Shown here: positions 1 through 9,140 of the stretch, one piece after another
Layout of the letters: the number at the start of each line of letters is the position of its first letter
Position numbering within the stretch: position 1 is the stretch's first letter
DNA from: a virus
Lineage: Duplodnaviria > Heunggongvirae > Uroviricota > Caudoviricetes
Direction: 5' to 3' (one strand)
DNA length: 18,239 nucleotides
IMG/VR virus record: IMGVR_UViG_2609459801_000018
The notes under the pieces: generated by a model
Told to the model about the DNA's origin: nothing
The model's database searches: none
What the model saw: only the letters and a program-made list of their open reading frames with translations
Translations under genes and position numbers: made by a program

Positions 1-738
1 ATGGCAACTGCTATTCTGAACGTAGCCGGTCGCACCTTAGCCTTCATTAGTGGTAAGGCACCGGAAATCAAACCCTCGCCCGGCGGCGACACTCCATCGG
101 GGCCGTCTGATGGTGACACATCCGTTCGTACAGTCTCCCTGCTGCCGACAGCCGGAGAGGCTGCTGCGCAGGGCTGGACCATCACCGGCGGCAGTGTTGC
201 GCTGGAAGATGGTGTGTTTAAGGTTACCAAGCAGAGCAATAAAACCTGGTCCCTGATGCATCCGGTGGATGACGCAGTCTCCCTGCTGACACGGGGTGGC
301 AGACTGAGCTGTAAGTTTCGACTGTCAGGCGCACTGACCAACAACCAGTTCGGTCTGGGAATTTATCTGTATACCGATGTAGCGTTACCTGACGTCGTGG
401 CGATGACCGGGACTGGTAACCCGTTCCTGATGTCGTTCTTCACCCAGACCACAGACGGCAAACTGAATCTGATGCATCACAAGAAAGCCGGAAACACAAA
501 GTTGGGCGAGTTCGGGAATTACAGTAACGACTGGCAGACGCTGGAGCTGGTGTTCACCGCCGGCAGTGCCACGGTTACTCCGAAACTGAATGGAGTGGCT
601 GGCCCGGCATTCCAGGTCATAAAAGACAGTCTGACACTGGGGCTGAATGCGCTGACGTTAACTGATATCACTAAAAATGCCGCGTACGGCGTCGATATCG
701 GCAGCCTGGTGCTGGAAATCAATAATCCCGCAGCATAA
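1..738 (+). CDS. hypothetical protein, possibly 5'-truncated at the window edge; Gly/Thr/Ser-rich, function unknown
   Basis: 245-codon ORF starting at base 1 and ending 24 bp before the R-like gene, with an AGGAG-like RBS for the downstream gene. I recognise no family; it sits where P2 has lysis genes. Confidence 0.45.
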   Translation: MATAILNVAGRTLAFISGKAPEIKPSPGGDTPSGPSDGDTSVRTVSLLPTAGEAAAQGWTITGGSVALEDGVFKVTKQSNKTWSLMHPVDDAVSLLTRGGRLSCKFRLSGALTNNQFGLGIYLYTDVALPDVVAMTGTGNPFLMSFFTQTTDGKLNLMHHKKAGNTKLGEFGNYSNDWQTLELVFTAGSATVTPKLNGVAGPAFQVIKDSLTLGLNALTLTDITKNAAYGVDIGSLVLEINNPAA

Positions 739-761
739 GGAAGAGCAGGAGAGCAAAACAG

Positions 762-1229
762 ATGCTTAAGACAAACAGTCTGCGAGAGTCCATGCTTCAT
801 GGGTGTCGGTGGTGCCAGGCTAATCCCGAGAAATTCACCATTTTCGTGGAGAGCGGCAACATTGAAACGACCGGAGAAGCGCCCTCGTTTGTTTACCGCT
901 ATCAGATGGTGATGTTTGTCATGGATTACGCCGGAGAGCTGGACGACCTCACGCTGCCGCTGCTGGCGTGGTTATCCGAAAATCAGCCACAGTTGTTGCT
1001 CAATCCGGAGCGTAATCAGGACATCAAATTTTCTGCCGTTATCAATGACGATGACAGCGCCGATCTCCTGTTTACGCTCCCCCTGCGGGAACGCGTTCGC
1101 ATCACGCGCAACAGTCAGGGCACACCGCAGGCAGAACACCTGCCGGAGCCAAAACCCCGTCTGCCCTCTTCCGAAGGCGACTGGTCGCATGTATTCCAGG
1201 ATGTGACGTGGGGTGAAAGCGATGGATAA
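762..1229 (+). CDS. phage tail completion protein, R-like
   Basis: 155 aa, the same length as P2 gpR, directly upstream of the S-like and V genes; its stop overlaps the next start (ATGGATAA). Assignment by synteny and size, not a verified alignment. Confidence 0.55.
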   Translation: MLKTNSLRESMLHGCRWCQANPEKFTIFVESGNIETTGEAPSFVYRYQMVMFVMDYAGELDDLTLPLLAWLSENQPQLLLNPERNQDIKFSAVINDDDSADLLFTLPLRERVRITRNSQGTPQAEHLPEPKPRLPSSEGDWSHVFQDVTWGESDG

Positions 1230-1857
1230 GGCATTCACCAGCGTGGATGAAACCTTTGAGGCTATCCGCGACAGCCTGAATCAGCAGGCCATCAATAACA
1301 TCGCCAGAAAGCTGGCACAGGATTTACGTCGCGCCCAGCAGGCACGTATCCGATCACAAAAAGCGCCGGACGGGACCGAATGGACACCACGCAGACGCCG
1401 CGTAACCCGGATACAGGAGCGCATTCGCTTTATCTGGAATAACGAAGCACGCACGCTGAAAAACTGGCATCACGACACGGGGAAATACGGGCGAACCATT
1501 ACCGGGTGGGATGAGGATAAAAACAATATCCGCACGTTTTACCGGGATGACATCGACCGTTTTCTGGAAATACGCACCCGGCGCATCAACCAGGACAGCA
1601 CAAAGCGCGTCCCCATGTTTGTAAAACTGCGCACCGCCCGCTACCTGAAAGCCCGTGCAGATGCTTCCGGTGTGACGGTGGGTTACAGCGGCGTGGCCGC
1701 ACGTATTGCCCGCGTTCATCAGTTCGGTGAGCGCGATCAGGTTGCGCCGGGCATTTTCACCGATTACCCGGTACGTGAGCTGCTGGGTATCAGCCAGGCA
1801 GATGAGCGCCTGATTTATAACACGGTGCTGGGCCGGATTGCGGAGGCTGTACGGTGA
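1222..1857 (+). CDS. phage virion morphogenesis / tail completion protein, S-like
   Basis: ORF 1213-1857; the ATG at 1222 overlaps the R stop and the gene ends in GTGA overlapping the V start. Position matches P2 gpS, though it is longer than P2 S. Confidence 0.5.
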   Translation: MDKAFTSVDETFEAIRDSLNQQAINNIARKLAQDLRRAQQARIRSQKAPDGTEWTPRRRRVTRIQERIRFIWNNEARTLKNWHHDTGKYGRTITGWDEDKNNIRTFYRDDIDRFLEIRTRRINQDSTKRVPMFVKLRTARYLKARADASGVTVGYSGVAARIARVHQFGERDQVAPGIFTDYPVRELLGISQADERLIYNTVLGRIAEAVR

Positions 1858-2435
1858 GCGCAGAACTCATGCGACTGCTGAGCAATATCATCCGCACCGG
1901 GATCATCTCTGAAGTTGATGAGAAGTCCTGGCGCGTGCGCGTTCGCAGCGGCGAACTGGAAACAGGCTGGCTGCGCTGGAACACCACGCGCGCGGGAGCC
2001 TTCAATGTGTGGCTGCCGCCATCACCAGGCGAACAGGTGGTAATTGCCTGCATTGGCGGCAACCCGGAAACCGCCATGATAATTGGCAGCCTGTGGAGTG
2101 ATGCCAGTCCGGCCCCCGGCAAAAGCCTGAAAGAAATCGTGATCAGCGCGCCGGACGGCGCGGTGTTCCGCTACGACGCAGACGCTGGCGCACTGAGCGC
2201 CAGCGGCATGAAAACGGCCACTTTACAGGCATCCGTCAGCGTGAAACTGGACACGCCCGTCGTGGAATGCACAAACCTTCTGAGAACGGCGACGCTTGAC
2301 GTCACAAAAGGAGGAAAGATGAGCGGCAATATCACGCACAGCGGCGGCAACTTCACCTCAAACGGCATCACAGTGCATACGCATAAACACGGTGGCGTGA
2401 AAGGCGGCAGCGATTCGACAGGAGGCCCGCAGTGA
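1854..2435 (+). CDS. baseplate assembly protein V (central spike)
   Basis: Translation carries gpV-like motifs (IRTGII..., WLRW..RAG, C-terminal NGITVHTHKHGG resembling P2 gpV HTHKH); GTG start with a GGAGG RBS, overlapping the S stop. Confidence 0.85.
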   Translation: MSAELMRLLSNIIRTGIISEVDEKSWRVRVRSGELETGWLRWNTTRAGAFNVWLPPSPGEQVVIACIGGNPETAMIIGSLWSDASPAPGKSLKEIVISAPDGAVFRYDADAGALSASGMKTATLQASVSVKLDTPVVECTNLLRTATLDVTKGGKMSGNITHSGGNFTSNGITVHTHKHGGVKGGSDSTGGPQ

Positions 2436-2782
2436 CAACCCGCTACACAGGAATGAATCCGGACGGGACGGGAAACCTGAACGATATGGAGCACCTGAAA
2501 CAGTCAGTCAGGGATATCCTGATCACCCCGCTGGCAAGCCGGGTTATGCGACGGGAATATGGCAGCCTTGTGCCTGATTTGATTGACGAACCCATGAATA
2601 ACACAACTCGTCTGCAATGCATGAGTGCTGCCGTGATTGCGCTGACACGATGGGAACCCCGCATTGCCCTGGACGCCATCGACGTTGTCTGGAAGGCAGG
2701 AGGCCGCGCCGGGGTGACGCTGTCGGGCACTGTCATGCAGACCATGCAGAATGTTGAATTAACCATCACGCTGAGAGAGTAA
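2432..2782 (+). CDS. baseplate wedge protein W (GPW/gp25 family)
   Basis: 116 aa; the N-terminus MTTRYTGMN... and overall length match P2 gpW. GTG start overlaps the V stop, preceded by ACAGGAGG. Confidence 0.85.
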   Translation: MTTRYTGMNPDGTGNLNDMEHLKQSVRDILITPLASRVMRREYGSLVPDLIDEPMNNTTRLQCMSAAVIALTRWEPRIALDAIDVVWKAGGRAGVTLSGTVMQTMQNVELTITLRE

Positions 2783-2785
2783 ATC

Positions 2786-3682
2786 ATGCCTGCTGTTGAC
2801 CTTTCCCAGTTACCGGAACCCGCCATCATCGCGAAGCCTGATTTTGAGGCAATTCTGGCTGACACAAAGGCCATGATGATTGCGTCCTATCCTGCCGAAC
2901 AGCGTGAAGCCGTCTCCGCCGCGCTGGAGCTGGAATCGGAACCCCTGAACGTTATCGCTCAAACCATGTCTTTTCGTGAAATGCTGTTACGCCAGCGGGT
3001 TAACGAGGGCGCACGCGCCTGCATGTTAAGCCACGGTTCAGGGACAAACCTGGACAACCTCGCGGGCAATATGAACACAAAGCGCCTGGTTATCACTCCG
3101 GCAACGGATACCACCGACGCGGTGATGGAGAGCGACACCTCGCTGAGATTGCGGGCGCAACGGGCGTATGACGGCCTGAGTGTTGCTGGCCCGTCAGGTG
3201 CATACGAGTATTTTGCACGCAGCGCCAGCGGTCTGGTGCGTGATGCGCGGGCCATCAGCCCGTCTCCGGCCTGTGTGACGGTTTCCATCCTGTCCACTGA
3301 AGGCGACGGCACAGCAACGGAGGCGTTGCTTAATACCGTTCGCGCCGTTCTGAATGCAGAGGATACCCGCCCGGTGGCCGACCGCCTGACCGTACAGAGC
3401 GCCAGAATCGTGACATGGCGGCTGAATGCAAAACTGTACTTTTACCCCGGCCCGGAATCCGAACCTATTCTGGCCGCGGCTGAATCGTCGTTCAGGAAGT
3501 GGCTGGCTGAGCAGGGGCTTATCGGTCAGGACGTGGCGTTGTCCGCCATTGCTGCCGCACTGCATGTGCACGGTGTGCAACGCGTGGAGATAATCGAACC
3601 CACACAGAATATGGCCATCAGCGACATACAGGCGGCGCGCTGTGAGTCATTCACCATCAGCGAAGGTGGACGCAATGAGTAA
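2786..3682 (+). CDS. baseplate assembly protein J
   Basis: 298 aa, sitting between W and I as in P2; length and position fit gpJ. Confidence 0.8.
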   Translation: MPAVDLSQLPEPAIIAKPDFEAILADTKAMMIASYPAEQREAVSAALELESEPLNVIAQTMSFREMLLRQRVNEGARACMLSHGSGTNLDNLAGNMNTKRLVITPATDTTDAVMESDTSLRLRAQRAYDGLSVAGPSGAYEYFARSASGLVRDARAISPSPACVTVSILSTEGDGTATEALLNTVRAVLNAEDTRPVADRLTVQSARIVTWRLNAKLYFYPGPESEPILAAAESSFRKWLAEQGLIGQDVALSAIAAALHVHGVQRVEIIEPTQNMAISDIQAARCESFTISEGGRNE

Positions 3683-4283
3683 TTCGTTGTTACCACCATC
3701 AGCCAGCAATTTCATGCGTTGTGCCGAAGCCGTCGGAACACGCATTACAGACATTCCGGTAGACCTCAACACGCTGTGGTCGCCGGACACCTGCCCGGTG
3801 CATCTGCTGCCTTATCTCGCCTGGGCGTTTTCCGTTGACCGCTGGGATCGCAACTGGCCGGAAGAGACAAAGCGACAGGTGATTCGTGATGCATGGCTGA
3901 TACACCGACACAAAGGGACCATCAGCGCACTGCGAAGAGCCGTGGAGCCTCTCGGCTACCTGATTGAAGTAAAGGAGTGGTGGCAACTCAACGAGGAGCC
4001 GGGAACATTTCGCATTGTTGTCGGAGTACTTGATCAGGGCATCACCGATGAAATGCATCAGGAACTTGAGCGCCTTATTGCGGATGCAAAACCAGTAAGT
4101 CGCCATCTGACGGGGCTGGCGATCAGCCTGAGTGTGAACGGAAAGATTTTCGTTGGTACGGGATGCTATCACGGCGATGCCCTGACGGTTTATCCCTACA
4201 CCCCGGAGTCCATTATTGTCGAAGGGGACTATTTCCCTGCCCCGGCCATTCATTTAATTGATAATCTGAGAGTAAACGCATGA
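3675..4283 (+). CDS. baseplate/tail protein I
   Basis: Contains gpI-like motifs (LWSPDTCP..LLPYLAWAFSVDRWD, ERLIADAKPVSRHL). The start is chosen at the ATG at 3675, which overlaps the J stop (ATGAGTAA), rather than the ORF-track start at 3642. Confidence 0.8.
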   Translation: MSNSLLPPSASNFMRCAEAVGTRITDIPVDLNTLWSPDTCPVHLLPYLAWAFSVDRWDRNWPEETKRQVIRDAWLIHRHKGTISALRRAVEPLGYLIEVKEWWQLNEEPGTFRIVVGVLDQGITDEMHQELERLIADAKPVSRHLTGLAISLSVNGKIFVGTGCYHGDALTVYPYTPESIIVEGDYFPAPAIHLIDNLRVNA

Positions 4284-5950
4284 CAGTGAAATACTACGCT
4301 ATTCTGACTAATCAGGGCGCGGCACGACTGGCTAACGCGACGATGCTCGGCAGTAAACTGAATCTGACGCAAATGGCCGTTGGTGATGCAAATGGTGTGT
4401 TACCAACACCAGACCCTGCACAAACAAAACTGATTAACCAGAAACGCATTGCACCGCTGAATCTTCTGAGTGTTGACCCTAACAATCAGAGCCAGATTAT
4501 TGCGGAGCAAATCATCCCTGAAAACGAGGGAGGATTCTGGATCCGTGAGATTGGTCTTTATGATGATGAAGGTGCACTCATTGCGGTGGCAAACTGCCCG
4601 GAAACGTACAAACCGCAGTTGCAGGAAGGCAGTGGACGCACCCAGACTATCCGCATGATTCTGGTTGTCACGAACACCGAAGCCATCACGCTGAAAATCG
4701 ACCCGTCTGTGGTTCTGGCAACCCGCAAATATGTGGATGATAAAATATCAGAGCACGAACAATCACGACGTCACCCGGACGCCTCGCTGACCGTAAAAGG
4801 TTTTACTCAGTTAAGCAGTGCAATTAACAGTGAATCAGAAACACTGGCCGCAACACCGAAAGCGGTTAAGGCTGCATATGACCTGGCTAACGGGAAATAT
4901 ACCGCCCAGAACGCCACCACTACACAAAAAGGGATTGTTCAGCTCAGTAGCGCCACGAACAGCACGTCTGAAACGCTGGCAGCGACACCAAAAGCTGTTA
5001 AGGCGGTAATGGATGAAACGAACAAGAAAGCACCATTAAACAGCCCGGCACTGACCGGAACGCCAACAACACCAACAGCGCCACAGGGGGCTAATAGTAC
5101 CCAGATCGCAAGCACGGCTTTCGTTATGGCCGCGATTGCCGCACTTGTAGATTCGTCACCTGATGCACTGAACACGCTGAACGAACTGGCTGCGGCGCTG
5201 GGCAATGACCCGAATTTTGCGACCACCATGACTAACGCGCTTGCGGGTAAGCAACCGAAGAATGCCACCCTGACGGCGCTGGCGAAGCTTGCTACATCAG
5301 CAGATAAACTCCCATATTTTACAGGGGCAGATCGTGCCGCGTTAACCGCGTTGACAAGTGTTGGACGTGCCATTCTTGGTAAAACCAGCACTCAGGGAGT
5401 TCTTGATTACCTTGGTTTGGGGGAAGGCTCTGCACTGCCCGTTGGTGTACCTGTTCCGTGGCCCTCAGCCACTCCACCAACGGGCTGGCTGAAATGCAAC
5501 GGCGCAGCATTTTCTCCTGAAGATTACCCCAAACTGGCACAGGCTTACCCCGCGAACAAATTACCGGATCTACGGGGTGAATTTATCCGTGGCTGGGATG
5601 ATGGACGTGGCTTGGATGCTGGGCGTGCCTTGCTAAGTCTTCAGGATGACTCTTTTGAAGCGCACAGGCATGAGTCCTTTTTTTATGCGGGTATTTCACG
5701 TAATGAGATCCCATTAAAAAATCTTCCAAGTTCAGACGAGATGCTGACTTTAAGTTCCACAACTAATGCCTTGTCCCCGGACGATATTGATGCCACCAAC
5801 TCGTTAATTGGTAATGACGATTACAACTGTCTTATCGAAGGGAATAAAAATAACAAACGAACAGCGACAGGACTGAGTACCAGTATTGTCGGCACAGCAG
5901 AAACACGCCCCCGCAACGTTGCATTCAATTACATCGTAAGAGCCGCATGA
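4280..5950 (+). CDS. tail fibre protein H; constant N-terminal part (to about 5416) fused to the currently expressed variable C-terminal cassette A (5417-5950)
   Basis: 556 aa. The N-terminal ~370 aa resemble P2 gpH, including the duplicated QLSSA.NS.SETLAATPKAVKA motif; the C-terminal part begins LGEGSALPVGVPVPWP, the conserved cassette head. ATG overlaps the I stop. Confidence 0.9.
   Translation: MTVKYYAILTNQGAARLANATMLGSKLNLTQMAVGDANGVLPTPDPAQTKLINQKRIAPLNLLSVDPNNQSQIIAEQIIPENEGGFWIREIGLYDDEGALIAVANCPETYKPQLQEGSGRTQTIRMILVVTNTEAITLKIDPSVVLATRKYVDDKISEHEQSRRHPDASLTVKGFTQLSSAINSESETLAATPKAVKAAYDLANGKYTAQNATTTQKGIVQLSSATNSTSETLAATPKAVKAVMDETNKKAPLNSPALTGTPTTPTAPQGANSTQIASTAFVMAAIAALVDSSPDALNTLNELAAALGNDPNFATTMTNALAGKQPKNATLTALAKLATSADKLPYFTGADRAALTALTSVGRAILGKTSTQGVLDYLGLGEGSALPVGVPVPWPSATPPTGWLKCNGAAFSPEDYPKLAQAYPANKLPDLRGEFIRGWDDGRGLDAGRALLSLQDDSFEAHRHESFFYAGISRNEIPLKNLPSSDEMLTLSSTTNALSPDDIDATNSLIGNDDYNCLIEGNKNNKRTATGLSTSIVGTAETRPRNVAFNYIVRAA
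5400..5425 (+). other. invertase crossover site 1 (TTCTTGATTACC-TT-GGTTTGGGGGAA), inside the H gene
   Basis: 26-bp hix/gix-like site; the conserved half-site GGTTTGGGGGAA (complement TTCCCCCAAACC) is shared with the four other copies; the left half-site TTCTTGA resembles hixL. Confidence 0.75.
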
Positions 5951-5969
5951 AAACGTTGGTTTGGGGGAA
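5944..5969 (+). other. invertase crossover site 2 (direct orientation relative to site 1)
   Basis: CGCATGAAAACG-TT-GGTTTGGGGGAA; the stop codon of H (TGA, 5948-5950) lies inside the site. Confidence 0.75.
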
Positions 5970-6437
5970 GGCTCTGCACTGCCCGTTGGTGTGCCTGTTC
6001 CATGGCCCTTAGCAACACCACCAACGGGCTGGCTGAAATGTAACGGTGCAGCATTTTCTTCTGAAATGTACCCCAAACTGGCAAAAGCCTACCCCACTAA
6101 TAAATTACCGGATTTACGCGGAGAATTTATCCGTGGCTGGGATGATGGGCGAGGAATTGATGCGGCACGCGCTTTATTGAGCATTCAAAACGGGATGTTG
6201 GAAAAACACCGCCATATTGTTGTAGCTAACGATGGATATGACACAAAAGATGAATGGGAGTTGGCTACGATTTTCAAAAAAACATATACACAAGGCAGGG
6301 GGCTTGATGCCACAAATACAGGAGGGAGTTTGATTCCATCACCAACGCTTCATTCACGAGGAAGTATTGGTAACACAGGTGGTAGTGAAACCCGCCCCCG
6401 CAATATTGCATTTAACTATATCGTGAGGGCGGCTTAG
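5961..6437 (+). CDS. alternative tail-fibre C-terminal cassette B (silent; no ATG, the ORF-track start is TTG)
   Basis: 158 codons, open, beginning LGEGSALPVGVPVPWP...GEFIRGWDDGRG and ending ETRPRNIAFNYIVRAA like the other cassettes. Confidence 0.7.
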   Translation: MGEGSALPVGVPVPWPLATPPTGWLKCNGAAFSSEMYPKLAKAYPTNKLPDLRGEFIRGWDDGRGIDAARALLSIQNGMLEKHRHIVVANDGYDTKDEWELATIFKKTYTQGRGLDATNTGGSLIPSPTLHSRGSIGNTGGSETRPRNIAFNYIVRAA

Positions 6438-6443
6438 TTATAT

Positions 6444-7055
6444 TCAACTGGCTGCTGCCAGTGGTATTTCCGGCAAGTTGATATCTGGTACCATGTTTAT
6501 ATCCATTGCGTTCAGCGCGTCTATATAATCCAGCACGGCATTAAGCCGGGTGGTTTCTGCCTGCGTCAACTTCCGCCCGGCCTGCAACTTCAACTGAATC
6601 AGACTTATGGAAGCCATTGCCGCATCAGCCAGTGACTGGCGCTTGGTTTCTGCCGCTTCTACTGCGGCACGATGTTGTGCCTCAGTATCTGTCACCCATT
6701 TTTCACCATCCCATTTATCGTATGGTGTTAACGGGGCGATAGTGGTTGTAGTTTTCGGGTAGTCACCCAGCGCCGTGATTTCTTCGGTGTTTCCCGTGTC
6801 AGTGCTATAGACGGTTTCACCACGATGGTCTGGCGCATACTCCCATGAACTTAAATTCTCCGAACGGCGGATAGCATAGCCCGCTTTATGTGCGCCCGGG
6901 GCATCTAAACAGGAATTTGCCGGAATACCGACACCCACAGCAAGATATTCAGTTGATTCGGAAATATATTCCCGTGTCTCACCATCATAGTTATAAACGA
7001 CGATGTTTCCTGCCTGTACGGCAATAAGGTCATCATTTAATATCGCGTTATTCAT
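6444..7055 (-). CDS. tail fibre assembly protein (P2 gpG / Mu U family chaperone)
   Basis: 203 aa with a tfa-like C-terminus; its ATG overlaps the stop of cassette C (TAATG), so it is translationally coupled to that cassette. Confidence 0.8.
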   Translation of the reverse strand: MNNAILNDDLIAVQAGNIVVYNYDGETREYISESTEYLAVGVGIPANSCLDAPGAHKAGYAIRRSENLSSWEYAPDHRGETVYSTDTGNTEEITALGDYPKTTTTIAPLTPYDKWDGEKWVTDTEAQHRAAVEAAETKRQSLADAAMASISLIQLKLQAGRKLTQAETTRLNAVLDYIDALNAMDINMVPDINLPEIPLAAAS

Positions 7056-7513
7056 TATGCGGTTCTCACAATATAATTGAAGGCAATATTGCGTGGGCGG
7101 TTTTCATTCCCATCTGAGGATTCCGTTCTGTATTGACTGGTAAATCTACCGTTAATTGCACCTTGCCGGACGGCGTTATCTGTCGACAACAGACTATCCC
7201 CTCTTTTGTCATTTGGCACCAGTACCGTGTTATCCCACGCATCCCATGACCGAATATTATGATAATGACTTCCTGTTAACCACCCCTGCATGCTTAAGAT
7301 GCCCCTTCCGGCATCCACCCCGCGCCCATCATCCCAGCCACGGATAAACTCACCGCGTAAATCAGGTAATTTTAACGTTGGGTAAACCTTTGCCAGATTT
7401 GGGTACATTTCAGAAGAAAATGCTGCACCGTTACATTTCAGCCAGCCCGTTGGTGGTGTGGCTGAGGGCCATGGAACAGGCACACCAACGGGCAGTGCAG
7501 AGCCTTCCCCCAA
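7055..7513 (-). CDS. alternative tail-fibre C-terminal cassette C (silent, inverted), paired with the tfa gene
   Basis: 152 codons, open, with the conserved head and the conserved tail ENRPRNIAFNYIVRTA; starts at the TTG within site 3. Confidence 0.7.
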   Translation of the reverse strand: MGEGSALPVGVPVPWPSATPPTGWLKCNGAAFSSEMYPNLAKVYPTLKLPDLRGEFIRGWDDGRGVDAGRGILSMQGWLTGSHYHNIRSWDAWDNTVLVPNDKRGDSLLSTDNAVRQGAINGRFTSQYRTESSDGNENRPRNIAFNYIVRTA

Positions 7514-7530
7514 ACCAACGTTTTCATGCT
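7505..7530 (-). other. invertase crossover site 3 (inverted relative to site 1)
   Basis: Plus strand reads TTCCCCCAAACC-AA-CGTTTTCATGCT; contains the stop codon of cassette D. Confidence 0.75.
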
Positions 7531-7952
7531 GCCCTTACGATGTAATTAAACGCAATATTACGAGGACGAATGGTTACATAATTGACCCCATCACCTCGTG
7601 AAGGTCCTGCAAATGAAAAACGGGAAAAGCTTGGTTGGTTAGAAACAATTTGGTCATAGTTATTGATTGAATGACCAGACCCAATGTCGAAATTACCTCC
7701 GTAATGAGAAAAACTTGTACCATCCTGCCCTGAAAGCAGGGTACGTCCCGCATCAATCCCGCGCCCATCATCCCAGCCACGGATAAATTCACCCCGTAAA
7801 TCCGGTAATTTATTGGTGGGGTAAGCCTTTGCCAGTCCGGGATACATTTCAGAAGAAAATGCTGCGCCGTTACATTTCAGCCAGCCCGTTGGTGGTGTTG
7901 CTGAGGACCACGGAACGGGCACACCAACGGGCAGCGCAGAGCCTTTCCCCAA
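7524..7952 (-). CDS. alternative tail-fibre C-terminal cassette D (silent, inverted)
   Basis: 142 codons, open; head is GKGSALPVGVPVPW (K in place of E), tail is RPRNIAFNYIVRAA. Confidence 0.7.
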   Translation of the reverse strand: MGKGSALPVGVPVPWSSATPPTGWLKCNGAAFSSEMYPGLAKAYPTNKLPDLRGEFIRGWDDGRGIDAGRTLLSGQDGTSFSHYGGNFDIGSGHSINNYDQIVSNQPSFSRFSFAGPSRGDGVNYVTIRPRNIAFNYIVRAA

Positions 7953-7969
7953 ACCAACGTTTTCATGCT
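7944..7969 (-). other. invertase crossover site 4 (inverted; one mismatch in the conserved half-site, TTTCCCC instead of TTCCCCC)
   Basis: Plus strand reads TTTCCCCAAACC-AA-CGTTTTCATGCT; contains the stop codon of cassette E. Confidence 0.7.
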
Positions 7970-8486
7970 GCCCTTACGATGTAATTAAACGCAATGTTGC
8001 GTGGGCGGTTTTCGTTTGCAGTTGGAACAATTTTTGAAGCATCAAGGCCAATCACTTTTGGGTAAACAGCGCCGTCTGTCCTTTCTGTCACCATACTTCT
8101 GACTAAGGAGAAATAACTATTGTTTGTTGAGGAATTTAAAGGCACCACTGCCCCCTTAAACGAGCCTACTGATTCCCATATTGAATAATTTTCAGTGTTT
8201 ACAGTCTTGAACTCACCATAGATATTACGTATGGCATCACCTTGAGCGGATAATATTGTTCTCCCCGCATCCGCACTACGTCCATCATCCCAGCCACGAA
8301 TAAATTCACCCCGTAAATCCGGTAATTTATTGGTGGGGTAAGCCTTTGCCAGTCCGGGATACATTTCAGAAGAAAATGCTGCGCCGTTACATTTCAGCCA
8401 GCCCGTTGGTGGTGTTGCTGAGGGCCACGGAACGGGCACACCAACAGGCAGCGCAGAACCTTCCCCCAAACCAACGTTTTCGTTTT
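7963..8486 (-). CDS. alternative tail-fibre C-terminal cassette E (silent, inverted)
   Basis: Open frame with conserved head LGEGSALPVGVPVPWPSATPPTGWLKCNGAAFS and tail ENRPRNIAFNYIVRAA. The ORF-track extension to 8526 starts at TTG and runs through site 5, so it is unlikely to be a real start. Confidence 0.65.
8461..8486 (-). other. invertase crossover site 5 (inverted), 55 bp upstream of the invertase start
   Basis: Plus strand reads TTCCCCCAAACC-AA-CGTTTTCGTTTT; same conserved half-site as the others, with a distinct outer arm. Confidence 0.75.
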
Positions 8487-8540
8487 TATCCCTACCTATA
8501 CCAACTATGTATTTTTCACGAAACAAAGAGGATGTTTTTT

Positions 8541-9140
8541 ATGCAAATTGGCTATGTTCGTGTGTCAACAAATGACCAGAACACGGATTTACAACGCAAT
8601 GCACTGAACTGCGCAGGATGTGAACTGATTTTTGAAGATAAAATCAGCGGAACGAAATCAGCCAGACCGGGATTGAAAAAACTGCTCAGAACGCTATCAG
8701 AAGGAGATACGCTGGTTGTCTGGAAGCTGGACAGACTGGGCAGAAGTATGAAACACCTGATCACGCTTATTGAGGAATTGCGGGAAAAAGGTGTTAATTT
8801 CCGTAGTCTGACGGACAGCATTGACACATCAACACCCATGGGGCGTTTCTTTTTTCACGTCATGGGGGCTTTAGCCGAAATGGAACGTGAATTAATTGTA
8901 GAGCGTACACTGGCCGGGCTGGCAGCAGCACGCGCACAAGGACGCATTGGCGGACGTCGCCCGAAGTTGACAAAAGAACAACACGAGCAAATAGCGAGGC
9001 TGATTAAAAACGGTCATGACAGGAAACAACTGGCGATCATTTACGACATCGGCATATCGACGATTTATCGTTATCACCCTGTAGGCGATATACAGGCTGA
9101 AGAAACAACCAGGCAGACTCAGGAAAATGAAAACCGCTAA
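8541..9140 (+). CDS. site-specific DNA invertase, small serine recombinase of the Hin/Gin/Pin/Cin/Min family
   Basis: N-terminus MQIGYVRVSTNDQNTDLQRNAL with the catalytic Ser in VSTNDQ; motifs VVWKLDRLGRS, GRFFFHVMGALAEMERELI..ERT and a C-terminal HTH region, near-identical in pattern to Pin/Gin. AGAGGA RBS 8 nt upstream of the ATG at 8541; the ORF-track start at 8346 is rejected. Confidence 0.93.
   Translation: MQIGYVRVSTNDQNTDLQRNALNCAGCELIFEDKISGTKSARPGLKKLLRTLSEGDTLVVWKLDRLGRSMKHLITLIEELREKGVNFRSLTDSIDTSTPMGRFFFHVMGALAEMERELIVERTLAGLAAARAQGRIGGRRPKLTKEQHEQIARLIKNGHDRKQLAIIYDIGISTIYRYHPVGDIQAEETTRQTQENENR

What the first reader, a model, noticed from the sequence alone, without database searches (positions are those of the whole stretch)
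5903..5969. Every cassette ends in the same 16-residue peptide and its stop codon lies inside the next crossover site
All five cassettes end in E(T/N)RPRN(I/V)AFNYIVR(A/T)A. For cassettes A, D and E the final Ala codon and TGA stop form part of the outer arm of the following 26-bp site (..GCATGAAAACG TT GG..). Conservation extends about 45 bp beyond the site itself. So a conserved protein C-terminus is physically coupled to the recombination site. It may be an accessory part of the site, a shared chaperone-recognition or receptor-engagement tip, or a track for homologous exchange. The same pattern recurs at 6390-6437, 7055-7105, 7524-7570 and 7963-8010.
Basis: seen in the sequence. Interest (0 to 1): 0.5.

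Follow-up and report, generated by a model that had tools for sequence, protein, structure and literature searches.

The report
Shared tail-fibre end is structural
The identical 14-16 residue ending of the five swappable tail-fibre tips is the last strand of a well-known "collar" protein fold (as in phage T4 fibres). It sits next to the DNA-inversion sites only because the tips are packed end to end, so the finding is real but ordinary.

Summary
All five cassettes end in RPRN(I/V)AFNYIVR(A/T)A. Cassette D has T-I, not E-T/N, before it. For A, D and E the last Ala codon and the TGA stop fill positions 2-7 of the left arm of the next 26-bp site.

The proposed coupling of peptide to site is not supported.
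- The tail is conserved only as protein: pS 0.71 against pN 0.025. All 12 amino-acid-invariant tail codons vary synonymously among the five copies.
- B and C carry the same tail with no site after it.
- In 99 distinct related tails from other Enterobacterales, 72 are followed by a tail-fibre-assembly (tfa) start codon and only 10 by a site. 45 of 75 loci have no invertase nearby.

The tail aligns to T4 gp37 residues 1011-1026 (NIAFNYIVRLA) and to the gp12 C-terminus. The cassette head aligns to gp37 811-877. These are the two published segments of the discontinuous collar domain D10, and the receptor-binding part is inserted between them.

The stop-in-site overlap is a packing feature of stacked, chaperone-less cassettes. 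It also occurs in a plasmid region reported to be 99% identical to p15B Min. The crossover dinucleotide lies 5 nt after the stop, so each cassette keeps its own end in every isomer.

This is known biology and of low interest.

The parts
4280..5399 (+). Constant part of tail-fibre gene H (Phage_tail_fib N-terminal domain plus fibre repeats)
   Evidence: ORF 4280-5950. Pfam PF12571 and PF03406.
5400..5425 (+). Crossover site 1, TTCTTGATTACC TT GGTTTGGGGGAA, inside H. Its left arm encodes the end of the constant part.
5417..5950 (+). Cassette A, currently fused to H. Head about 5417-5640, variable insert, tail 5900-5947, stop TGA 5948-5950.
   Evidence: Pfam Collar PF07484 at residues 389-436 of H.
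5944..5969 (+). Crossover site 2, CGCATGAAAACG TT GGTTTGGGGGAA. Its left arm contains the last Ala codon and the TGA stop of cassette A.
5961..6437 (+). Cassette B (silent). Tail 6387-6434, stop TAG 6435-6437, no site downstream.
   Evidence: Pfam Collar.
6444..7055 (-). The only tail-fibre assembly chaperone gene (tfa, Caudo_TAP). Its ATG overlaps the stop of cassette C.
   Evidence: PF02413, 8.9e-31
7055..7513 (-). Cassette C (silent). Tail 7058-7105, stop TAA 7055-7057 overlapping the tfa start (TAATG).
7505..7530 (-). Crossover site 3, AGCATGAAAACG TT GGTTTGGGGGAA. Its left arm contains the Ala codon and TGA stop of cassette D.
7524..7952 (-). Cassette D (silent). Tail 7527-7574 (TIRPRNIAFNYIVRAA), stop TGA 7524-7526.
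7944..7969 (-). Crossover site 4, AGCATGAAAACG TT GGTTTGGGGAAA. Its left arm contains the Ala codon and TGA stop of cassette E.
7963..8484 (-). Cassette E (silent). Tail 7966-8013, stop TGA 7963-7965.
8461..8486 (-). Crossover site 5 (outermost), AAAACGAAAACG TT GGTTTGGGGGAA. Its left arm is non-coding.
8541..9140 (+). Din-family serine DNA invertase (Resolvase plus HTH_7 domains)
   Evidence: 94% identical to the invertase of P1-like phage vB_EcoM-673R5 and 74% to P1 Cin.

Best explanation
Each cassette encodes one complete 'phage tail collar' domain that is split in the sequence. About 70 conserved N-terminal residues (the head) and the conserved last 14-16 residues (the tail, a beta-strand) fold together. 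The variable receptor-binding region is an insertion between them. This is the arrangement described for T4 gp37 (D10 = residues 811-881 plus 1010-1026, with needle D11 inserted) and for T4 gp12. The tail is therefore invariant because it is a structural part of the fold that joins every alternative tip to the common fibre shaft. It probably also helps register the trimer, but that is inference.

Its closeness to the recombination sites is a separate fact of packing. In Escherichia P2-like prophages and P1/p15B-like plasmids, cassettes that lack their own chaperone gene are stacked head to tail with no spacer. The last Ala codon and the stop (TGA or TAA) then occupy the weakly constrained outer positions 2-7 of the left arm of the next site. 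The invertase exchanges strands at the central TT, 5 nt beyond the stop. Each module (right arm, head, insert, tail, stop, left arm) therefore moves intact and keeps its own terminator in every inversion isomer.

What is shown: protein-only conservation, homology to gp37/gp12, site anatomy, and independence of the tail from sites. What is inferred: the 3D packing in this particular protein, and actual inversion.
For: (1) Codon analysis.
- In the 14 tail codons pS = 0.71 and pN = 0.025 (ratio 0.036). The 66 head codons give pS = 0.27 and pN = 0.059.
- 0 of 12 amino-acid-invariant tail codons are nucleotide-invariant, against 31 of 56 in the head (Fisher p = 2.7e-4). Third-position identity is 0.47 in the tail and 0.78 in the head.

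(2) Homology to solved structures.
- Cassette B residues 5-71 align to 2xgf chain positions 27-93, which are gp37 residues 811-877.
- Residues 135-158 align to chain positions 219-242. The 16-residue tail therefore corresponds to gp37 1011-1026, ...ENTVKNIAFNYIVRLA.
- T4 gp12 ends in ETRPWNISLNYIIK, and 9cuy carries ENRPKNIAVMYIIK.
- PMC6957217 states that D10 is residues 811-881 plus 1010-1026, has the gp12 collar fold, and has D11 inserted into it.

(3) Structure prediction. AlphaFold2 with a 65-sequence alignment is confident only for the head (pLDDT 87-95) and for the last 8 residues (pLDDT 86, strand 152-156). The top Foldseek hits in the PDB are 2xgf and 1ocy.

(4) Generality.
- 119 of the 150 best 50%-identity cluster representatives end in the same tail at the same distance from the C-terminus.
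- 113 of 124 cassettes in related loci from many Enterobacterales genera carry it.
- Of 99 distinct nucleotide tails, 72 are followed by a tfa start that overlaps the stop, 10 by a site and 17 by neither.
- 45 of 75 loci have no invertase within the locus.
- Lytic phages (T4-like phages, cyanophages, Ralstonia and Acinetobacter phages) align through residue 156-157 of 158.

(5) Within the window, B and C have the tail but no following site.

(6) Stacking. Every internal site in the window, L001-L005, L009, L011 and L084 reads NNCAT(G/A)AAAACG TT. L084 is pMCR_SCKP-LL83, said in PMC5786510 to be 99% identical to p15B min. It has 9 sites and 9 cassettes, and 7 of the sites follow a tail.
Against: - The contact between tail and head in this protein is inferred from homology. 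The AlphaFold2 model is poor overall (mean pLDDT 64) and I could not inspect its coordinates.
- Pfam's Collar model (57 positions) covers only the head, so no curated model confirms the tail as part of the domain.
- Codon use in the last four codons is not free: Arg at -3 is AGR in 91 of 94 tails and the last Ala is GCA in 60 of 80. A small nucleotide-level constraint is therefore layered on the end of the tail.
- Structural necessity alone does not explain why the sequence is nearly invariant across genera (mean pairwise distance 0.16) while gp12 and gp37 tolerate substitutions. An added role, such as chaperone docking, is possible.
Confidence: 0.85

Rival explanations
1. The tail, together with the conserved head, is the common docking or registration element for the tail-fibre assembly chaperone Tfa. 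This would let a single tfa gene serve five (elsewhere up to nine) different tips, and would allow chaperone-less cassettes to be stacked. This role would add to the structural one rather than replace it.
For: - There is one tfa for five cassettes in the window, and one for nine in pMCR_SCKP-LL83.
- In 63 cassette-tfa pairs from other loci, Tfa divergence does not follow insert divergence (rho 0.04, reached or exceeded in 51 of 300 permutations). It correlates weakly with head divergence (rho 0.25, 0 of 300).
- Tfa proteins at least 80% identical in both halves accompany unrelated inserts in 10 of 17 pairs.
- The T4 review PMC3004832 reports the proposals that fibre folding starts near the C-terminus and that gp38 brings the C-terminal ends together.
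Against: - The published Tfa model, as summarised in PMC9608196, has the variable N-terminal domain binding the distal part of the fibre, not the collar.
- Insert distances are near saturation (mean 0.77), so the missing correlation is weak evidence.
- The head-Tfa correlation may simply reflect shared ancestry.
- T4 gp12 has the same tail motif and, per the review PMC3004832, is listed as needing gp57A only, with no Tfa- or gp38-type chaperone.
- No binding data exist for these proteins.
Confidence: 0.2
2. The tail is conserved at the DNA level, either as an accessory part of the crossover site (extra invertase or Fis contacts) or as a homology track for gene conversion between cassettes.
For: The tail adjoins three of the five sites, and the last Ala codon and stop lie inside the left arm. 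The cassette heads do show reduced synonymous divergence (pS 0.27), which fits DNA-level homogenisation on the other side of each site.
Against: - Tail synonymous sites are saturated (pS 0.71). All 12 amino-acid-invariant tail codons vary among the five copies.
- Tails followed by sites (A, D, E) are no more alike at the nucleotide level than they are to B and C.
- The same peptide is found with no site or invertase nearby in most related loci and in lytic phages.
- Arm positions 1-6 vary among the sites.
Confidence: 0.03
3. The tail is conserved because it carries the translation-initiation signal (Shine-Dalgarno sequence) and the coupling context for the downstream tfa gene.
For: Arg at position -3 is AGR in 91 of 94 tails, against 31 of 192 at the two other Arg positions of the same peptide (p = 3e-43). 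With the preceding Val codon this forms GAGG/AAGG/GAGA 8 nt before the tfa ATG. That ATG overlaps the fibre stop in 72 of 99 distinct tails.
Against: - This explains codon choice in only the last 3-4 codons. It does not explain the amino-acid invariance of RPRNIAFNY, where codons vary freely.
- AGR is kept in all 10 tails that are followed by a site instead of tfa.
- T4 gp37 and gp12 have the motif in other gene contexts.
Confidence: 0.1

Closest known systems
T4 gp37 domain D10 and the T4 gp12 collar domain (PDB 2XGF, 1OCY; Pfam PF07484)
   Same: The fold is discontinuous. An N-terminal segment of about 70 residues and a C-terminal segment of about 17 residues flank an inserted receptor-binding region. 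The tail is nearly the same sequence: NIAFNYIVR(L/A)A in gp37 and ETRPxNIxxNYI in gp12. The protein ends 2 residues after the Arg or Lys.
   Different: The inserts here are short (about 60-95 residues) and unrelated to the gp37 needle. Only cassettes A-C carry an HxH motif. The domain here is a swappable cassette, whereas in T4 it is a fixed gene end.
Min multiple-inversion system of plasmid p15B, and the Cin, Gin, Pin and Hin systems
   Same: - The invertase is of the Din family (74% identical to P1 Cin, 94% to a P1-like phage invertase).
- The sites are 26 bp with a central TT and match the published consensus.
- A constant 5' gene part is joined to alternative 3' cassettes.
- More than two sites occur in both orientations.
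- There is one tfa gene.
- Stop codons lie in the left arm of internal sites in a Min-type region reported to be 99% identical to p15B min.
   Different: The host element here is a P2-like prophage tail module, not a P1-like plasmid. It has five sites, whereas p15B has six by my recollection and pMCR_SCKP-LL83 has nine. I could not read the original Min papers.
Invertible tail-fibre region of E. coli EC958 prophage Phi2 (PMC4134206)
   Same: It is a P2-like prophage with Phage_fibre_2 repeats in the constant part and a Collar-domain invertible 3' part. Its sites are TCCTCAATTACC TT GGTTTAGGAGAA and GAGAGATAAACG TT GGTTTGGGGGAA, inside an inverted repeat of about 200 bp. Inversion was observed by long-read sequencing.
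   Different: EC958 Phi2 has two sites and two cassettes. The window has five stacked cassettes, three of which end inside the next site.

Membership tests
Phage tail collar domain (PF07484; T4 gp12 / gp37 D10 fold) | The N-terminal collar segment matches the Pfam model above its gathering score | tested here: met
   All five cassettes score 51-56 bits against a cut-off of 24.
Phage tail collar domain (PF07484; T4 gp12 / gp37 D10 fold) | A C-terminal segment homologous to gp37 1010-1026 or the gp12 C-terminus closes the domain | tested here: met
   The tail aligns to ...KNIAFNYIVRLA (2xgf chain 219-242) and to ETRPWNISLNYIIK (1ocy). The domain limits are taken from PMC6957217.
Phage tail collar domain (PF07484; T4 gp12 / gp37 D10 fold) | A variable receptor-binding region is inserted between the two collar segments | tested here: met
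   The alignment of the five cassettes shows an invariant head and tail with an unalignable middle of about 60-95 residues.
Phage tail collar domain (PF07484; T4 gp12 / gp37 D10 fold) | The three-dimensional fold is the same as gp12/gp37, with the tail strand packed against the head | tested here: inconclusive
   AlphaFold2 is confident for the head and the last 8 residues only (mean pLDDT 64). The top Foldseek hits are 2xgf (E = 7.7e-7) and 1ocy. Contacts could not be inspected.
Phage tail collar domain (PF07484; T4 gp12 / gp37 D10 fold) | Trimeric assembly with metal-binding HxH motifs in the insert | tested here: inconclusive
   HxH occurs at residue 83 of cassettes A, B and C and is absent from D and E. 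Oligomeric state cannot be tested with these tools.
Din-family (Hin/Gin/Cin/Pin/Min) DNA inversion system, Min-type multiple inversion | A small serine recombinase with a resolvase catalytic domain and a C-terminal HTH | tested here: met
   PF00239 at 2.1e-51 and PF02796 at 1.4e-12. 74% identical to P1 Cin.
Din-family (Hin/Gin/Cin/Pin/Min) DNA inversion system, Min-type multiple inversion | 26-bp crossover sites: two imperfect 12-bp inverted arms around a 2-bp core | tested here: met
   Five sites against 0.00 expected by chance. The arms are listed. They agree with the consensus and the Phi2 sites printed in PMC4134206.
Din-family (Hin/Gin/Cin/Pin/Min) DNA inversion system, Min-type multiple inversion | More than two sites, in both orientations, each at the start of an alternative 3' gene segment | tested here: met
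   Two sites lie on the + strand and three on the - strand, and each precedes a cassette head.
Din-family (Hin/Gin/Cin/Pin/Min) DNA inversion system, Min-type multiple inversion | Inversion actually occurs, so that isomers exist in a population | not testable with these tools
   Only one sequence of the window is available. Inversion was shown by long reads for the related EC958 Phi2 sites (PMC4134206).
Din-family (Hin/Gin/Cin/Pin/Min) DNA inversion system, Min-type multiple inversion | A Fis-dependent recombinational enhancer in cis | not tested
   I did not search for one.

The most novel reading that the evidence does not exclude
The near-invariant C-terminal strand, together with the conserved head, is the shared handle by which one Tfa chaperone folds every alternative tip, or it makes the tips chaperone-independent. 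That would be what allowed cassettes to shed their own tfa genes and be stacked so tightly that their stop codons lie inside the next crossover site.
Probability: 0.15. Interest if true: 0.45.

Novelty: already known. Interest (0 to 1): 0.15.

Why it matters
The result matters mainly for annotation and engineering. The collar domain of these fibres is discontinuous and ends with a strand that Pfam's 57-position model does not cover. The silent 3' cassettes are complete, self-terminating modules whose boundaries are the crossover dinucleotides. Anyone designing chimeric P2-, P1- or pyocin-type fibres should keep the head and the tail and swap only the insert. The analysis also shows that adjacency to a recombination site is not evidence of coupling: a synonymous-site test separates the two cleanly. 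The one open point is how a single tfa gene serves 5-9 different tips.

Tried and rejected
- Single-sequence AlphaFold2 of cassette B gave pLDDT 31 and was unusable. It was repeated with a 65-sequence alignment.
- I could not obtain the original p15B Min papers (PubMed 1534556, PMC329034, PMC206102, PMC53420). As a proxy I used pMCR_SCKP-LL83, which PMC5786510 reports to be 99% identical to p15B min.
- The 'collar' in the Ur-lambda paper (PMC12617516) is the N-terminal ring of Stf around the tail. It is a different thing and was set aside.
- The search for homologous proteins returned only near-identical E. coli copies in its top 120. They were of little use for diversity, so I used the 50%-identity representative search instead.
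- The Mantel-type test of Tfa against insert divergence suffers from saturated insert distances and is only suggestive.
- No exact match to the window's cassette order was found among 5,426 complete E. coli genomes. The best place covers 83% of the query, and L004 has the same five-cassette layout with different content.
- The DNA-level readings (accessory site, homology track) were considered and rejected on the codon data.
Full report
**What is in the window.** The region 4280-9140 is the tail-fibre end of a P2-like prophage.
- Gene H (4280-5950, +) has a Phage_tail_fib N-terminal domain, fibre repeats and a Collar domain.
- Four more Collar-domain segments follow: B 5961-6437 (+), C 7055-7513 (-), D 7524-7952 (-) and E 7963-8484 (-).
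- There is one tail-fibre assembly gene, tfa (6444-7055, -, Caudo_TAP), and one serine invertase (8541-9140, +; Resolvase plus HTH_7).
- The invertase is 94% identical to that of the P1-like phage vB_EcoM-673R5 and 74% identical to P1 Cin.
- Five 26-bp sites (12-bp arm, TT, 12-bp arm) lie at 5400-5425 and 5944-5969 on the + strand, and at 7505-7530, 7944-7969 and 8461-8486 on the - strand. The site pattern gives 5 matches against 0.00 expected.
- Each site sits at the start of a cassette. The right arm GGTTTGGGGGAA encodes the G-L-G-E that begins every cassette.

**Checking the observation.** The five cassettes end in ETRPRNVAFNYIVRAA (A), ETRPRNIAFNYIVRAA (B), ENRPRNIAFNYIVRTA (C), TIRPRNIAFNYIVRAA (D) and ENRPRNIAFNYIVRAA (E).
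- For A, D and E the DNA reads GCA TGA AAACG TT GGTTTGGGG. The last Ala codon is at positions 2-4 of the next site's left arm and the stop is at positions 5-7. The crossover dinucleotide lies 5 nt further on.
- B ends in TAG and is followed by the convergent end of tfa.
- C ends in TAA, which overlaps the ATG of tfa (TAATG).

**Protein-level or DNA-level conservation.**
- By the Nei-Gojobori method, the last 14 codons give pooled pS = 0.71 and pN = 0.025 (ratio 0.036). Most pairwise dS values are beyond saturation.
- The first 66 codons of the cassettes give pS = 0.27 and pN = 0.059.
- All 12 tail codon columns that are amino-acid-invariant and degenerate carry at least two different codons among the five copies. 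In the head, 31 of 56 such columns are nucleotide-invariant (Fisher p = 2.7e-4).
- Third-position identity is 0.47 in the tail and 0.78 in the head.
- Tails followed by a site (A, D, E) are no closer to each other in nucleotides than they are to B and C.
- The tail is therefore held by selection on the peptide, not on the DNA. This removes the 'accessory part of the site' and 'homology track' readings. Any DNA-level homogenisation is on the head side of each site.

**What the peptide is.** A sequence search of solved structures with cassette B hits three fibres.
- T4 gp37 (2xgf, E = 4.4e-17). Cassette residues 5-71 align to chain positions 27-93, which are gp37 residues 811-877. Residues 135-158 align to chain positions 219-242, so the 16-residue tail corresponds to gp37 1011-1026, ...ENTVKNIAFNYIVRLA.
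- A short tail fibre (9cuy), aligned end to end and carrying ...ENRPKNIAVMYIIK.
- T4 gp12 (1ocy), which carries ...ETRPWNISLNYIIK.

PMC6957217 states that gp37 domain D10 comprises residues 811-881 and 1010-1026 and has the fold of the gp12 collar domain. It also states that the needle D11 (882-1009) is an insertion into D10. The head and tail of the cassettes thus map onto the two segments of one discontinuous domain, and the variable middle is the inserted receptor-binding part.

AlphaFold2 with 65 aligned sequences is confident only for the head (pLDDT 87-95) and the last eight residues (pLDDT 86, beta-strand 152-156). Its best Foldseek matches in the PDB are 2xgf and 1ocy. Pfam's Collar model has 57 positions and covers only the head. 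That is probably why the tail looked unexplained.

**Independence from recombination sites.**
- A search of 1.84 billion cluster representatives gave 13,251 relatives with E of 0.001 or better. Of the best 150, 119 end in the same tail at exactly the same distance from the C-terminus. In those 119, R-P-R-N-x-A-F-N-Y-I-V-R-A-A is 92-100% conserved at every position except x (I/V) and the final residue (85% Ala).
- In 84 sequences from Escherichia, Pantoea, Erwinia, Xenorhabdus, Photorhabdus, Yersinia, Dickeya, Pectobacterium and others, 113 of 124 complete cassettes carry the tail.
- Of 99 distinct nucleotide tails, 72 are followed by a tfa start that overlaps the stop, 10 by a crossover site and 17 by neither.
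- 45 of the 75 loci with tail-bearing cassettes have no invertase within the locus.
- Lytic phages with no inversion system also align through residue 156-157 of 158. These include T4-like coliphages and Klebsiella phages, cyanophages, and Acinetobacter, Ralstonia and Pectobacterium phages.

**Why the stop lies in the site.** The overlap is confined to stacked cassettes in Escherichia-type elements.
- It is seen in the window, in chromosomal P2-like prophages (L002, L004, L005, L011) and in P1-like plasmids or phages (L001, L003).
- It is also seen in pMCR_SCKP-LL83 (L084), whose invertible region PMC5786510 reports as 99% identical to p15B min. L084 has nine sites, nine cassettes and one tfa, and seven of its sites follow a tail.
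- Every internal left arm reads NNCAT(G/A)AAAACG. Arms next to the constant gene read TTCTTGATTACC, and the outermost arms read AA(A/G)AC(G/T)AAAACG.
- All the stacked left arms share the inner AAAACG. The constant-gene arm reads ATTACC at those positions. The outer six positions differ between the three arm classes.
- The stop is TGA or TAA, never TAG. This keeps arm position 7 as A and varies only position 6.
- My inference is that the coding sequence simply uses the weakly constrained outer arm. Cassettes that lost their own tfa abut the next site with no spacer.
- Because exchange occurs at TT, downstream of the stop, each module keeps its terminator in every isomer.
- Inversion itself cannot be shown from one sequence. 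It was shown by long reads for the related two-site Phi2 region of E. coli EC958, whose sites and Collar cassettes are of this type (PMC4134206).

**Rivals.**
- *A chaperone-docking role for the tail.* This is not excluded. One tfa serves five tips here and nine in L084. In 63 cassette-tfa pairs, Tfa divergence does not track insert divergence (rho 0.04), and near-identical Tfa proteins accompany unrelated inserts. T4 work suggests that folding starts at the C-terminal ends (PMC3004832). Against it, the published Tfa model has the variable N-terminal domain gripping the distal fibre (PMC9608196). The insert distances are also saturated, and gp12 has the motif without such a chaperone. I give it about 0.2, as an added role.
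- *A translation-signal role.* This is real but small. Arg at -3 is AGR in 91 of 94 tails against 31 of 192 at the other two Arg positions (p = 3e-43). It forms GAGG/AAGG 8 nt before the tfa ATG. That accounts for codon choice in the last few codons only.

**Verdict.** The peptide is the closing strand of the tail collar domain, and the juxtaposition with the site is compact packing in a Min-type multiple-inversion region. Both the domain architecture and the inversion system are published, and near-identical loci are common: 3,059 of 5,426 complete E. coli genomes match part of the region. Novelty: already known. Interest: low.

Noticed in passing
window 5417-5640, 5961-6180, 7290-7513, 7730-7952, 8250-8469 (cassette heads): The first ~66 codons of the five cassettes have much lower synonymous divergence (pS 0.27, third-position identity 0.78) than their tails (0.71, 0.47). 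The heads, which form long inverted or direct repeats next to the sites, therefore look homogenised at the DNA level (gene conversion or recent spread), while the tails do not.
   Followed up: partly
window 7058-7069 and the last four codons of every cassette; 99 distinct tails in loci L001-L083: Arg three residues from the end is encoded by the rare AGR codons in 91 of 94 tails, against 31 of 192 at the two other Arg positions of the same peptide. With the preceding Val codon this forms GAGG/AAGG 8 nt upstream of the tfa ATG, which overlaps the fibre stop (TAATG) in 72 of 99 tails. It looks like an embedded Shine-Dalgarno sequence. It is also kept in tails that are followed by a site instead of tfa.
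   Followed up: partly
window 6444-7055 (-): There is only one tfa chaperone gene for five alternative tips, and in the present isomer it is antisense to gene H. It would be co-transcribed with H only in isomers that place it downstream on the same strand. Across 63 cassette-tfa pairs elsewhere, Tfa sequence does not co-vary with the receptor-binding insert.
   Followed up: partly
L084 (MF510496.1 58096-67816), sites at 674-3570 (+) and 5126-5623 (-): The Min-type region of plasmid pMCR_SCKP-LL83 has nine crossover sites and nine Collar cassettes but a single tfa. Seven cassettes are stacked in one orientation.
   Followed up: yes
window cassettes A, B and C at cassette residue 83 (about 5663, 6207 and 7267): An HxH motif (HRH, HRH, HYH) follows the head in A, B and C. 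It resembles the metal-binding His pairs of T4 gp12 and gp37. D and E lack it, which suggests two structural classes of insert.
   Followed up: no
L041 11922-12579 (Serratia microhaemolytica): An enterobacterial cassette ends in SENTVKNIAFNYIVRLA, the T4 gp37 version of the tail. It sits in the same locus as two RPRNIAFNYIVRAA-type cassettes.
   Followed up: no
L004 3061-4115 (E. coli 23CRST024): The closest five-cassette relative of the window has tfa and the adjacent cassette annotated as frameshifted pseudogenes. It also carries two copies of the E-type cassette.
   Followed up: no
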